A stretch of 4,312 nt of DNA, taken from IMG/VR virus record IMGVR_UViG_2724679538_000006. One strand, given 5' to 3'. Under the pieces are notes generated by a model that searched no databases, had not been told where the DNA came from, and saw nothing but the letters and a program-made list of their open reading frames with translations. Source of the stretch: a virus (Duplodnaviria; Heunggongvirae; Uroviricota; Caudoviricetes). The first letter of the stretch is position 1, and every line of letters starts with the position of its first letter. Shown here piece after piece: positions 2,959 through 4,312 of this stretch. Made by a program: the position numbers and the translations under genes.

Positions 2959-3630
2959 TCAGCGACCAATCACCACAACCTGACCACCATCCCCTTCGTC
3001 TGCCGTGCTGATCTCCTGAGAGACCACCCGCGACCCCACGCGCATTTCACCGTACAGAACCGGCAGAACATTGCCCTGGGCAACCATGTTATCCAGTGAG
3101 GAGAAATAGGTGTTCTGTTTGCCGTTATCCGTTGTCTGTGTACGGGGAGTTCTGGCTTTCGGTGCCAGCATCTGCGCCACACCACCGAGCACCATACTGG
3201 CACCGAGAGAAAACAGGATGCCGGTCATACCACCGGCCCCAATGGCTGCCCCCCATGCTGCAAGGGTGGCTCCGGCGGTAAAGAATGATCCGGCAATGGC
3301 GGCAGCCCCCAGGACAATCTGGAATACGCCACCTGACTTGGCCCCGGCGACTCTGGGAACAATATGAATCACAGCGCCATCAGGCAGAGTCTCATGTAAC
3401 TGCGCCGTTAACCCGGACGTGCTGACGTCCCGCCCGGCAATCCGTACCTGATACCAGCCGTCGCTCAGTTTCTGACGAAACACCGGGAGCTGTGTGGCCA
3501 GTGCGCGGATGGCTTCAGCCCCCGTTTTCACACGAAGGTCGATGCGGCGGCCAAATCGTTGCAAATCCCCGTAAAGGCAGATGCGCGCCATGCCCGGTGA
3601 CGCCAGAGGGAGTGTGTGCGTCGCTGCCAT
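2959..3630 (-). CDS. I: Tail assembly protein I (223 aa): N-terminal ubiquitin-like domain ending in Gly-Gly, then a Gly/Ala-rich hydrophobic C-terminal segment
   Basis: Complete ORF in the track (MAATHTLPLASPGMARICLYGDLQRFGRRIDLRVKTGAEAIRALATQLP...QVVVIGR). I recognise it as phage lambda gpI, with the same 223-aa length. A GAGG-containing purine run precedes the ATG. The gene order L-K-I-J and the I-J spacer of about 60 nt match the lambda arrangement as I remember it. Confidence 0.95.
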   Translation of the reverse strand: MAATHTLPLASPGMARICLYGDLQRFGRRIDLRVKTGAEAIRALATQLPVFRQKLSDGWYQVRIAGRDVSTSGLTAQLHETLPDGAVIHIVPRVAGAKSGGVFQIVLGAAAIAGSFFTAGATLAAWGAAIGAGGMTGILFSLGASMVLGGVAQMLAPKARTPRTQTTDNGKQNTYFSSLDNMVAQGNVLPVLYGEMRVGSRVVSQEISTADEGDGGQVVVIGR

Positions 3631-4271
3631 TTGTCGGTATACCTCTCTCGTTTGCTCAGTTGTTCAGGAATATGGTGCAGCAGCTCGCCATCACCACAGT
3701 AAATGGCGGCATGATTCGGCACCGATGAACCAAAACAGCACAGCAGCACATCGCCCGGTTGTGCTGATGACAACGGCACCTGATACAGCCCTGTGGCCTC
3801 CAGATTATCCAGATAGAGATTCTGACCGTGACGCCACCAGTCATCCCCGCGATGAAAATCCGGCATCTCAATCCCCGCCAGATGGTAAGCGTCCCGGAAC
3901 AGCGTGTAACAGTCCGTCACCCCGTGCTCAAAGCGCCGCCCGGTAAGATGCGGCACACAGCGGAATTTATGAATCGCCCCCCGGCAGACCAGCCACCACG
4001 GCAAATCACTCTGCACCTGCAGCCGCCGGTCGGCCTCACTCAGCCAGGGCAGACCACCGGGGTGGCTGTGGACCAGCGCCACAATCTCACCCTGCATTTC
4101 TGCCTGCAGCCAGTCCTCCGGCGACATCCGGAAATACGCCTCCGGCTCACCGGAGATATTCACGCAGGGGAAATATCTTTCCCCCTCCGGCGTTCTCACC
4201 ACGAAGCCGCACGACTCCGCTGGCGCACATCGCCGGGCGTGCGCCAGAATCGCTGATTCTGTCTCTGTCAT
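3528..4271 (-). CDS. K: Tail assembly protein K (247-aa long form): N-terminal JAB/MPN (JAMM) metalloprotease-like domain plus C-terminal NlpC/P60 cysteine peptidase-like domain
   Basis: Complete ORF in the track starting MTETESAILAHARRC. The JAMM motif HSHPGGLPWLSEAD (H68, H70, S78, D81) is coded at about 4029..4070; I checked codons 4068..4062 directly and they read His-Ser-His. The NlpC/P60-like catalytic Cys lies in HGVTDCYTLF (C121, about 3909..3911), with histidines downstream (HAAIYCGDGELLHH). The ATG lies 5 nt after the L stop codon. The 3' end overlaps the I start by 103 nt in a different frame. An alternative start at Met49 (4127..4125) would give the 199-aa form that I recall classic lambda annotation using. 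Confidence 0.9.
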   Translation of the reverse strand: MTETESAILAHARRCAPAESCGFVVRTPEGERYFPCVNISGEPEAYFRMSPEDWLQAEMQGEIVALVHSHPGGLPWLSEADRRLQVQSDLPWWLVCRGAIHKFRCVPHLTGRRFEHGVTDCYTLFRDAYHLAGIEMPDFHRGDDWWRHGQNLYLDNLEATGLYQVPLSSAQPGDVLLCCFGSSVPNHAAIYCGDGELLHHIPEQLSKRERYTDKWQRRTHSLWRHRAWRASAFTGICNDLAAASTFV

Positions 4272-4276
4272 GGGAT

Positions 4277-4312
4277 TTACTGCGAAAGTTTGTTAATGGA
4301 AAGGAAGCCGCC
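4277..4312 (-). CDS. L: Minor tail protein L, 3'-terminal fragment (last 11 codons plus stop); the rest lies beyond the window end
   Basis: The reverse complement of 4277..4312 reads GGC GGC TTC CTT TCC ATT AAC AAA CTT TCG CAG TAA, that is GGFLSINKLSQ-stop, which matches the C-terminus of lambda gpL as I recall it (...NFGGFLSINKLSQ). It sits directly upstream of K, as in lambda. Confidence 0.8.
   Translation of the reverse strand, partial: GGFLSINKLSQ

What the first reader, a model, noticed from the sequence alone, without database searches (positions are those of the whole stretch)
3528..4271. K reads as a 247-aa two-domain protein starting 5 nt after the L stop, not the shorter 199-aa form
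The open frame runs 48 codons upstream of the internal Met (4127..4125) that I recall being the annotated start of lambda K. This N-terminal extension carries conserved-looking sequence (CGFVVRTPEGERYF), including glutamates (E29, E31) that could serve as the upstream acidic residue of a JAMM active site (E...HxH...S..D). The long-form ATG is tightly coupled to the L stop (TAA, then 5 nt, then ATG), consistent with translational coupling. No good Shine-Dalgarno precedes either candidate start. The protein would combine a JAB/MPN metalloprotease fold with an NlpC/P60 cysteine peptidase fold.
Basis: partly seen in the sequence, partly recalled or inferred. Interest (0 to 1): 0.4.

Follow-up and report, generated by a model that had tools for sequence, protein, structure and literature searches.

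The report
Full-length lambda-type tail protein K
The gene is an ordinary, already catalogued 247-residue phage tail-assembly protein K with two peptidase domains; the familiar 199-residue "lambda K" comes from one G missing in the 1982 lambda reference sequence.

Summary
Window 3528..4271 (minus strand) is an intact 247-codon ORF. Its ATG lies 5 nt after the TAA of gene L, and Met49 is at 4127..4125.

The main interpretation is right. Residues 1-48 are as conserved as residues 49-105 in 53 homologues of 34-59% identity, and they evolve under purifying selection. They form the first helix and two strands of a JAMM/MPN fold, which is followed by an NlpC/P60 domain (AlphaFold pLDDT 96.9; Pfam hits to both domains).

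- The window is not lambda itself (about 97% identical). In the lambda reference (J02459/NC_001416) the upstream 48 codons are out of frame, because the reference lacks a G between 14266 and 14267. More than 20 independently sequenced lambda copies carry that G and so encode the 247-aa ORF.
- The JAMM glutamate is E19 (PxExCG motif, 53/54 sequences), not E29 or E31.
- A perfect GGAGG lies 11 nt upstream of the Met49 ATG.

None of this is new biology. The JAB + NlpC/P60 architecture was published in 2003-2006, and the 247-aa form is the standard call for thousands of prophage copies. What remains is a curation point: RefSeq and UniProt still list lambda K as 199 aa.

The parts
3528..4271 (-). 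Gene K, full-length CDS (247 codons plus TGA stop at 3528..3530); predicted product 28.2 kDa
   Evidence: ORF. Pfam two-domain hit. Exactly this protein is on record in E. coli and E. fergusonii as a 247-aa 'C40 family peptidase / phage tail protein'. Molecular weight.
4269..4271 (-). Start codon ATG of the long form. It is the first start codon in the open frame and has no Shine-Dalgarno sequence.
   Evidence: The same ATG gives a 247-aa ORF in all 80 IMG/VR relatives.
4277..4312 (-). 3' end of gene L (...GGFLSINKLSQ) with its TAA stop at 4279..4277. The 5-nt spacer ATCCC (4272..4276) separates it from the K ATG.
   Evidence: Read directly. Lambda L ends the same way. The gap from stop to ATG is 4-5 nt in 80 of 80 close relatives and 3-11 nt in 9 of the 12 divergent genomes where an upstream L-like ORF was located.
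4128..4271 (-). Codons 1-48, the N-terminal 'extension'. They encode helix 3-15 and strands 21-27 and 30-36 of the MPN fold.
   Evidence: Conservation. dN/dS. pLDDT 97-98 and secondary structure. PDB 2KKS aligns to residues 7-105.
4215..4217 (-). Codon GAG for E19, the predicted catalytic glutamate of the JAMM motif (within PAESCG)
   Evidence: E in 53 of 54 homologues. It aligns with the Glu of the ExCG segment of PfJAMM1 (5LD9/5LDA), 2KKS and 2KCQ.
4029..4070 (-). H68-S69-H70-x7-S78-x2-D81, the zinc-binding half of the JAMM motif
   Evidence: H68, H70 and D81 are invariant; S69 and S78 are kept in at least 90% of 54 homologues.
3957..4271 (-). JAMM/MPN (Prok-JAB) domain, residues about 1-105
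   Evidence: Pfam PF14464, 52.6 bits against a cut-off of 25. Foldseek match to PfJAMM1 5LD9, rmsd 2.6 A over 109 columns, and also to Rpn11, CSN5 and AMSH.
3600..3941 (-). NlpC/P60 (C40) papain-like domain, residues 111-224. Predicted catalytic residues are C121 (3909..3911), H187 (3711..3713) and H199 (3675..3677).
   Evidence: Pfam PF00877, 47.7 bits against a cut-off of 23. D120 and H199 are invariant; C121 and H187 are kept in at least 90%. Foldseek and profile hits to MepS/Spr, LytE and CwlO.
4125..4127 (-). Internal ATG (Met49), the start of the 199-aa form annotated in the lambda reference
   Evidence: Met in only 6 of 54 homologues, Ile in 37.
4139..4143 (-). GGAGG, 11 nt upstream of the Met49 ATG. 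It lies within codons E42-P43-E44-A45. It is a possible internal ribosome-binding site, but it is predicted to be base-paired in a local hairpin.
   Evidence: Duplex with the anti-SD is -9.5 kcal/mol; the 70-nt window around it folds at -30.3 kcal/mol with the GGAGG paired. It is annotated as an RBS in OM418625.
4137..4137 (-). The G (coding strand) that is absent from J02459/NC_001416 between lambda 14266 and 14267. Its absence splits lambda K into a 76-codon ORF and the 199-aa ORF.
   Evidence: Pairwise alignment. Site state in each locus. Translation of the 76-codon ORF.
3528..3630 (-). Out-of-frame overlap between the K 3' end (codons 214-247) and the 5' end of gene I (I ORF 2959..3630)
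   Evidence: An overlap of 58-103 nt is conserved in 16 relatives.

Best explanation
Window 3528..4271 (minus strand) encodes the complete tail-tip assembly protein K of a lambda-like phage or prophage. It is a single 247-residue (28 kDa) polypeptide.

Domain structure:
- The N-terminal JAMM/MPN+ zinc-metallopeptidase domain covers residues about 1-105. Its motif is E19 ... H68-S-H70-x7-S78-x2-D81.
- The C-terminal NlpC/P60 papain-like cysteine-peptidase domain covers residues about 111-224, with C121, H187 and H199.

Translation most likely starts at the ATG 5 nt after the L stop codon. That ATG has no Shine-Dalgarno sequence, so ribosomes finishing L probably re-initiate there (inferred from the spacing, not shown).

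The 199-residue 'lambda K' that starts at Met49 is an annotation artefact. The 1982 lambda reference sequence lacks one G (between 14266 and 14267), inside a GC-rich inverted repeat. This puts codons 1-45 in another frame. The first ATG left in the K frame, which happens to follow a GGAGG, was taken as the start.

Function comes from the literature and is inferred, not tested here. K acts catalytically or as a chaperone during tail-tip assembly with J, I and L, and it is absent from the virion. The published hypothesis is that its JAMM domain processes the ubiquitin-like N-domain of protein I.
For: ORF and domains:
- Prok-JAB matches residues 4-98 and NlpC/P60 matches 111-224, both above Pfam gathering scores.
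- Proteins called at 199 aa keep only the NlpC/P60 hit.

Conservation:
- In 53 homologues of 34-59% identity, residues 7-48 are as conserved as residues 49-105.
- P17, E19, C21, G22, N38 and F47 are invariant or nearly invariant.

Selection:
- Against E. albertii, codons 2-48 give pS 0.379 and pN 0.052 (omega 0.10). Against Citrobacter, omega is 0.34-0.41.

Start position:
- In 15 divergent genomes the ORF begins with an ATG 2-9 codons before the ILAHA motif.
- An upstream L-like ORF was located in 12 of them. Its stop lies 3-11 nt before that ATG in 9, overlaps it by 1 nt in one, and lies 35 or 88 nt before it in two.
- L125, L130, L132 and L134 have no in-frame ATG/GTG/TTG near codon 49.
- All 80 IMG/VR relatives have the intact 247-aa ORF.

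Structure:
- AlphaFold2 gives pLDDT 96.9 and pTM 0.91, with residues 1-48 folded as helix 3-15 and strands 21-27 and 30-36.
- Foldseek hits PfJAMM1, 2KKS, Rpn11 and CSN5, and also MepS, LytE and others. Profile alignment places E19 on the ExCG glutamate of PfJAMM1, 2KKS and 2KCQ.

Lambda reference error:
- A one-base gap separates the window from NC_001416.
- DE3, PV340536, KT232076, LC730321 and lambda imm21 carry the G and the 247-aa ORF.
- Twenty-one further contigs or fragments at least 99.6% identical to lambda also carry it. Most come from assemblies of unrelated bacteria, and 14 of them differ from the reference only by this base.
- The corrected lambda K exists verbatim on at least 1000 contigs.

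Literature:
- TAPK is described as JAB + NlpC/P60 (PMC1779556).
- Lambda K is listed as a JAMM protein (PMC300881).
- gpK is not found in virions (PMC10721106).
Against: - There is no direct protein-level evidence here (N-terminal sequence, mass, or initiation profiling) for which start codon is used.
- ATG1 has no SD (+0.7 kcal/mol), whereas Met49 is preceded by GGAGG at a usable, if long, spacing of 11 nt. Met49 is kept in 79 of 80 close relatives. Some internal initiation therefore cannot be excluded.
- Two database records (OR474059, OR974322) share the reference's missing G. They may be reference-guided assemblies, but this was not verified.
- Catalytic activity of either domain has never been shown, to my knowledge.
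Confidence: 0.87

Rival explanations
1. Two isoforms are made. Full-length K comes from ATG1. In addition, a 199-aa protein initiates internally at Met49 using the GGAGG at 4139..4143. This shorter protein is essentially NlpC/P60-only, because it lacks helix 1, two core strands and the catalytic Glu of the JAMM domain.
For: - GGAGG lies 11 nt upstream of the Met49 ATG, with a -9.5 kcal/mol duplex to the anti-SD.
- Met49 is kept in 79 of 80 close relatives.
- Curators of OM418625 annotated this site as the RBS.
- NlpC/P60-only TAPK versions exist in some prophages (PMC1779556).
Against: - Met49 is Ile, Leu or Val in 46 of 54 homologues. Several relatives have no in-frame start codon there. An internal start is therefore not a conserved feature of the family.
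- GGAGG is explained by coding, since it lies in the E42-P43-E44-A45 codons, in a segment where the family consensus keeps only the proline. About 9% of positions in this GC-rich region score at or below -9 kcal/mol.
- The SD and the AUG are predicted to be sequestered in a -30 kcal/mol hairpin.
- The leftover half of the MPN domain (residues 49-105) would probably not fold on its own (inference).
Confidence: 0.08
2. The short 199-aa protein that starts at Met49 is the only functional product, as annotated in NC_001416 and UniProt TIPK_LAMBD. On this view the upstream 48 codons are untranslated or an evolutionary relic.
For: - This is the historical annotation.
- There is an SD-like GGAGG before Met49 and none before ATG1.
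- Two extra records reproduce the frameshifted reference state.
Against: - Codons 2-48 are under purifying selection.
- They carry near-invariant JAMM residues.
- They are integral to a confidently predicted MPN fold.
- The frameshift that motivated the annotation is absent from more than 20 independent lambda sequences.
Confidence: 0.03
3. Translation starts at an intermediate GTG, either codon 24/25 (224 aa, as in NC_049954) or codon 37 (211 aa, as in KT232076).
For: - Gene callers chose these starts in some records.
- There is weak GGAG complementarity (-6.1 kcal/mol) upstream of GTG24.
Against: - Those records have the same intact 247-aa ORF.
- These starts would remove helix 1 and the PxExCG motif with E19, which are conserved across the family.
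- The GTGs encode the conserved V24/V25 strand residues, and equivalent start codons are absent in many relatives.
Confidence: 0.02

Closest known systems
Bacteriophage lambda tail-tip assembly protein K (gpK; UniProt TIPK_LAMBD/P03729, NP_040598, AAA96551)
   Same: Same gene in the same L-K-I-J order. The DNA is about 97% identical. Residues 49-247 correspond to the annotated 199-aa protein. Corrected lambda sequences encode a 247-aa K that falls in the same 90% cluster as the window protein.
   Different: The reference entry is 48 residues shorter because J02459 lacks one G. The window is a relative, not lambda itself; its best match is mEp460_4F5 at 98.9%.
247-aa K proteins already annotated in phage 21 (UMO75434.1), PhiR47_2 (XSB42918.1) and resequenced lambda PV340536 (XSB40720.1), plus PGAP 'C40 family peptidase / phage tail protein' entries
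   Same: Identical length, start position and two-domain content.
   Different: Nothing substantive. These entries show that the long form is already the common annotation.
TAPK family as described by Iyer, Burroughs and Aravind 2006 (PMC1779556)
   Same: JAB domain fused to an NlpC/P60 domain, encoded next to the ubiquitin-like TAPI and to TAPJ in lambdoid and T1-like tail clusters.
   Different: None in architecture. The proposed cleavage of TAPI by the JAB domain is still untested.
Stand-alone prokaryotic JAMM/MPN+ proteases: PfJAMM1 (5LD9/5LDA), DSY2949 (2KKS), 2KCQ, AfJAMM (1R5X/1OI0)
   Same: Same fold (rmsd 2.6 A over 109 columns to 5LD9) and the same E...HxH...S..D motif with the Glu in an ExCG segment.
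   Different: In K the domain is fused to a second peptidase. Sequence identity is only 21-26%. The substrate is unknown.
NlpC/P60 peptidoglycan endopeptidases MepS/Spr (2K1G, 8XUP), LytE, CwlO
   Same: Papain-like fold and a conserved Cys-His-His triad.
   Different: K has no signal peptide or cell-wall-binding module, and it acts in the cytoplasm during tail assembly (literature). A peptidoglycan substrate is therefore unlikely. NCBIfam cell-wall models score far below their cut-offs.

Membership tests
JAMM/MPN+ metallopeptidase (Pfam PF14464 Prok-JAB) | Profile match above the curated threshold | tested here: met
   52.6 bits against a gathering score of 25, residues 4-98 on model positions 4-103 of 114. 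The 199-aa forms lose this hit.
JAMM/MPN+ metallopeptidase (Pfam PF14464 Prok-JAB) | Motif E-x(n)-H-S/T-H-x7-S-x2-D | tested here: met
   E19, H68-S69-H70, S78 and D81. E19 is kept in 53 of 54 sequences; H68, H70 and D81 are invariant. E19 aligns to the ExCG glutamate of PfJAMM1, 2KKS and 2KCQ.
JAMM/MPN+ metallopeptidase (Pfam PF14464 Prok-JAB) | MPN fold | tested here: met
   The predicted model (pLDDT 96.9) matches 5LD9, 2KKS, Rpn11, CSN5 and AMSH at Foldseek probability 1.00. This is a prediction, not an experimental structure.
JAMM/MPN+ metallopeptidase (Pfam PF14464 Prok-JAB) | Zinc binding and (iso)peptidase activity | not testable with these tools
   Needs biochemistry. No report was found in the searched literature.
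NlpC/P60 (peptidase family C40, Pfam PF00877) | Profile match above the curated threshold | tested here: met
   47.7 bits against 23, residues 111-224 covering model positions 1-105 of 105.
NlpC/P60 (peptidase family C40, Pfam PF00877) | Catalytic Cys plus two His (or a polar third residue) in a papain-like fold | tested here: met
   C121 and H187 are kept in at least 90% of sequences, and H199 is invariant among 54 homologues. Fold matches to MepS, LytE and Acd33800.
NlpC/P60 (peptidase family C40, Pfam PF00877) | Peptidoglycan or other amidase activity | not testable with these tools
The NCBIfam cell-wall hydrolase equivalogs are far below their cut-offs.
Lambda-type tail assembly protein K (TAPK; phrog_30) | Sequence membership | tested here: met
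   phrog_30 'minor tail protein' at E = 9e-164. The DNA is about 97% identical to lambda across the K region, and the protein falls in the same 90% cluster as the corrected lambda K.
Lambda-type tail assembly protein K (TAPK; phrog_30) | Position between L and the ubiquitin-like I, upstream of J | tested here: met
   The L 3' end is upstream. The I ORF, with Pfam Lambda_tail_I, overlaps the K 3' end. Annotated relatives have the same order.
Lambda-type tail assembly protein K (TAPK; phrog_30) | Needed for tail-tip assembly but absent from virions | not testable with these tools
   Literature only: gpK was not detected by MS or cryo-EM in virions (PMC10721106; PMC12617516).

The most novel reading that the evidence does not exclude
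The model-phage protein has been handled as a 199-aa fragment that lacks the catalytic glutamate and about half of the MPN fold (for example HHpred on '199 residues' in PMC7291167). The JAMM activity of gpK may therefore never have been tested properly.

The full-length 247-aa K could be an active zinc isopeptidase. It would cleave the ubiquitin-like N-domain of gpI at its conserved C-terminal glycine during tail-tip assembly. That would be a phage-encoded, ubiquitin-type processing step, as hypothesised in 2006.

A minor variant of this reading is that an internally initiated 199-aa isoform coexists with the full-length protein.
Probability: 0.3. Interest if true: 0.55.

Novelty: already known. 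Interest (0 to 1): 0.18.

Why it matters
The value is practical rather than conceptual. Lambda is the reference siphophage, yet RefSeq NC_001416, GenBank J02459 and UniProt TIPK_LAMBD still list K as 199 aa. Some recent records and papers inherit this (DE3, lambda imm21; PMC7291167). Clones, interaction screens, structure predictions or activity assays built from that annotation use a protein that lacks the JAMM catalytic Glu and three core secondary-structure elements.

Knowing that real lambda DNA encodes the 247-aa form tells experimenters which construct to use when testing the long-standing hypothesis that K processes the ubiquitin-like protein I. This follows from the one G missing from the reference between 14266 and 14267.

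The artefact has also propagated. A 76-aa PHROG family of 'unknown function' matches the frameshifted stub.

Tried and rejected
- **E29/E31 as the JAMM acidic residue.** Rejected. These positions are variable (E in 2 of 54 and 11 of 54 sequences), while E19 is kept in 53 of 54 and aligns to the ExCG glutamate of solved JAMM proteins.
- **Programmed -1 frameshift fusing K to I in the 103-nt overlap.** I read the overlap by eye and saw no X XXY YYZ heptamer in the K frame. No tool was run, and I did not pursue it. The K-I fusion proteins are almost all singletons.
- **Literature.** I looked for a published statement that the lambda K start or position 14266 is wrong and found none in the held library. 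Casjens and Hendrix 2015 and the lambda ribosome-profiling paper (Liu et al. 2013) could not be opened.
- **Vendor note.** I have an unverified recollection that a vendor sequence note lists a G insertion at 14266. I treat it as a lead only.
- **The search for related loci with the distant alignment A1.** This failed because no stretch was conserved enough. It was redone with the closer alignment A2.
- **My first scripted check of locus L003.** It gave a spurious 174-aa ORF because the anchor motif was absent. Corrected: the ORF is 247 aa.
- **Mean anti-SD background energy.** It is meaningless because of sentinel values. Only the fraction at or below -9 kcal/mol was used.
Full report
**What is in the window**

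On the minus strand the window carries the end of gene L, then K, I and the start of J of a lambda-like tail cluster.
- The K region is 96.9-98.9% identical to many lambdoid phages. The best match is mEp460_4F5 at 98.9%, and lambda-named isolates sit at about 97%. So this is a close relative of lambda, not lambda itself.
- The ORF listing reports a 247-aa ORF at 3528..4271 (minus strand) that starts with ATG.
- Read, L ends ...GGFLSINKLSQ-TAA at 4279..4277. Five bases (ATCCC) follow, then the ATG at 4271..4269.
- The internal Met49 is at 4127..4125, and CGFVVRTPEGERYF is residues 21-34.

**Is the N-terminal extension coding?**

Domain and structure evidence says yes.
- Pfam places Prok-JAB on residues 4-98 (52.6 bits, cut-off 25) and NlpC/P60 on residues 111-224 (47.7 bits, cut-off 23).
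- Database proteins called at 199 aa keep only the NlpC/P60 hit.
- A sequence search of the PDB aligns residues 7-105 to the JAB-domain structure 2KKS, including ILAHARRCAPAESCGF against MLAHARQALPNEACGL.

Conservation says yes.
- An exhaustive search of 50%-clustered representatives found 2,777 clusters at E <= 1e-3. Almost all full-length ones are 230-260 aa and align from query residue about 1-10.
- I aligned 53 of them (34-59% identity) with the window protein. Residues 7-48 are as conserved as residues 49-105: 38% mean pairwise identity in both, and majority-residue fractions of 0.45 and 0.46.
- P17, E19, C21, G22, N38 and F47 are invariant or nearly invariant.

Selection says yes.
- Nei-Gojobori counts on codons 2-48 give pS 0.379 and pN 0.052 against an E. 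albertii prophage (omega 0.10).
- Against two Citrobacter copies omega is 0.34-0.41. In more distant pairs synonymous sites are saturated while pN stays at 0.3-0.45.

**Where translation starts**
- ATG1 is the first start codon after the upstream in-frame stop.
- All 80 close relatives in IMG/VR have the same ATG and a 247-codon ORF, 4-5 nt after the L stop.
- Fifteen divergent genomes were examined (Citrobacter, Edwardsiella, Budvicia, Limnobaculum, Chania, Pasteurellaceae, Aeromonadaceae; 44-77% identity). In all of them the ORF begins with an ATG 2-9 codons before the conserved ILAHA motif.
- An upstream L-like ORF was located in 12 of them. Its stop lies 3-11 nt before that ATG in 9, overlaps it by 1 nt in one, and lies 35 or 88 nt before it in two.
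- Four of them have no in-frame ATG/GTG/TTG anywhere near codon 49.
- Met49 itself is Ile in 37 of 54 homologues and Met in only 6.
- ATG1 has no Shine-Dalgarno complementarity (+0.7 kcal/mol). Termination-reinitiation coupling to L is therefore the likely mechanism. This is inferred from spacing, not shown.
- Contrary to the finding, Met49 is preceded by a perfect GGAGG (4143..4139) with an 11-nt spacer (-9.5 kcal/mol).
- That GGAGG lies in the E42-P43-E44-A45 codons, in a segment where the family consensus keeps only the proline. About 9% of positions in this GC-rich stretch score as well. The site is predicted to be buried in a -30 kcal/mol hairpin.
- Minor internal initiation cannot be excluded, but it is not a family feature.

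**Why lambda K is annotated as 199 aa**

- In NC_001416 and J02459, K is 14276..14875.
- Aligning the window to the reference shows a single one-base gap. The window reads GAGGCGTATTTCC and the reference reads GAGGC-TATTTCC, between lambda 14266 and 14267 (window position 4137).
- In the reference, the ATG 5 nt after the L stop opens a 76-codon ORF. Its first 45 residues are the JAMM N-terminus, and then it runs out of frame.
- Every independently sequenced lambda derivative I fetched carries the extra G and an intact 247-aa ORF. These are DE3 from BL21(DE3), PV340536 (an MG1655 lysogen), KT232076, LC730321 (48,503 bp) and lambda imm21.
- So do 21 further contigs or fragments at least 99.6% identical to lambda. 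Most come from assemblies of unrelated bacteria, apparently control-DNA contamination. Fourteen of them differ from the reference over the compared stretch only by this base.
- Only OR474059 and OR974322 reproduce the reference state. I could not check whether they are reference-guided assemblies.
- The corrected lambda K exists verbatim on at least 1000 contigs under names such as 'C40 family peptidase' and 'metal-dependent protease of the PAD1/JAB1 superfamily'. The 199-aa sequence is UniProt TIPK_LAMBD.
- The missing base lies in a GC-rich inverted repeat, where gel compression is plausible. That last point is inference.

Annotations of identical or near-identical DNA disagree.

| Length called | Records |
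|---|---|
| 247 aa | phage 21, PhiR47_2, PV340536 |
| 224 aa | NC_049954 |
| 211 aa | KT232076 |
| 199 aa | DE3, lambda imm21 |

All of these records contain the same open 247-codon frame.

**Structure and active sites**
- AlphaFold2 on the 54-sequence alignment gives pLDDT 96.9 and pTM 0.91.
- Residues 1-48 are confidently folded as helix 3-15 and strands 21-27 and 30-36.
- Foldseek against the PDB returns two sets of hits at probability 1.00:
  - JAMM/MPN+ proteins: PfJAMM1 5LD9 (rmsd 2.6 A over 109 columns), 2KKS, Rpn11, CSN5 and AMSH.
  - NlpC/P60 enzymes: MepS/Spr, LytE and Acd33800.
- A profile search aligns the family's 'PkEaCG' segment with the ExCG glutamate segment of PfJAMM1, 2KKS and 2KCQ.
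- The JAMM motif is therefore E19 ... H68-S69-H70-x7-S78-x2-D81.
- The NlpC/P60 triad is C121, H187 and H199.
- A protein starting at Met49 would lack the catalytic Glu and three core elements of the MPN fold.

**Function and comparison with what is known**
- Lambda K was listed among JAMM-motif proteins in 2003 (PMC300881).
- The TAPK family was described in 2006 as JAB + NlpC/P60 encoded next to the ubiquitin-like TAPI. That paper proposed that the JAB domain releases the Ub-like domain of I at its C-terminal glycine (PMC1779556).
- gpK is required for tail assembly but is not found in virions by mass spectrometry or cryo-EM (PMC10721106; PMC12617516).
- The window protein meets every sequence, motif, fold and synteny criterion I could test for JAMM/MPN+, NlpC/P60 and TAPK. 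Enzymatic activity could not be tested.
- Recent work still analyses lambda gpK as '199 residues' and sees only the peptidase domain at 52-182 (PMC7291167).

**Verdict**

The finding is correct in its main claim, but it describes something already in the databases and the literature. What I can add:
- The short lambda annotation comes from a one-base omission in the reference sequence.
- The catalytic Glu is E19.
- An SD-like element precedes Met49.

Interest is low (0.18). The residual value is in curating a model-organism reference and in choosing the right construct to test the K-I processing hypothesis.

**What led nowhere**
- No paper in the held library states the K start or 14266 problem. 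Two key lambda papers could not be opened.
- Reading the K/I overlap by eye, I saw no slippery heptamer that would suggest K-I frameshifting. No tool was run for this.

Noticed in passing
window 2959..3630 (minus strand), gene I; candidate starts at 3630, 3591, 3564 and 3531: Gene I is annotated with three different lengths in public records of near-identical DNA: 223, 201 and 190 aa. Pfam Lambda_tail_I (the ubiquitin-like domain) begins at residue 14 of the 223-aa ORF. In distant relatives I begins MA(T/I)V(R/C)(F/L)YGDLQR, 58-67 nt before the K stop, which corresponds to window M14. Lambda-clade relatives that lack M14 keep the ATG 103 nt before the K stop. The 190-aa and 201-aa annotations therefore truncate the Ub-like domain. 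The 223-aa form (or the 210-aa form from M14) is supported.
   Followed up: partly
window 3528..3630 (minus strand): An out-of-frame K/I overlap of 58-103 nt is conserved across 16 relatives down to about 45% identity. This may explain the strong conservation of the K C-terminal tail (SAFTGIxNDL) among closer relatives and the low synonymous divergence there (lambda versus window: 0 synonymous changes in codons 214-247).
   Followed up: partly
lambda reference L001:834-1064 (NC_001416 14133..14363); window equivalent 4128..4271: PHROG family phrog_7305 ('unknown function', 76 positions) matches K residues 1-48 end to end. It has exactly the length of the 76-codon ORF that the missing G creates in J02459. 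It looks like a database family seeded by the frameshift artefact.
   Followed up: partly
loci L093-L104, L113, L114, L116, L117, L121, L124, L135, L136, L138 (genome contigs): Genome assemblies of unrelated bacteria hold low-coverage contigs identical to lambda, some 48.4-48.5 kb long. Examples are Neobacillus, Shewanella, Chromatium, Pseudomonas, Bradyrhizobium and Paenibacillus. This is most likely lambda control-DNA contamination in public assemblies.
   Followed up: no
window about 4093..4162 (minus strand): A GC-rich inverted repeat (CUCCGGUGAGCCGGAGG...CCGGAUGUCGCCGGAGG) is predicted to fold at -30.3 kcal/mol around the Met49 AUG and its GGAGG. It coincides with the site where the lambda reference lost a G.
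   Followed up: no
proteins P0015, P0034, P0067, P0076, P0088, P0098, P0118 and P0008, P0023, P0032, P0041, P0042, P0048: Database proteins that fuse K to I (Pfam PF06805) or L (PF05100) to K occur, mostly as singletons or very small clusters. They are probably frameshift or assembly errors in these tightly packed, overlapping genes. Iyer et al. did report a genuine TAPI-JAB fusion in one E. coli prophage.
   Followed up: no
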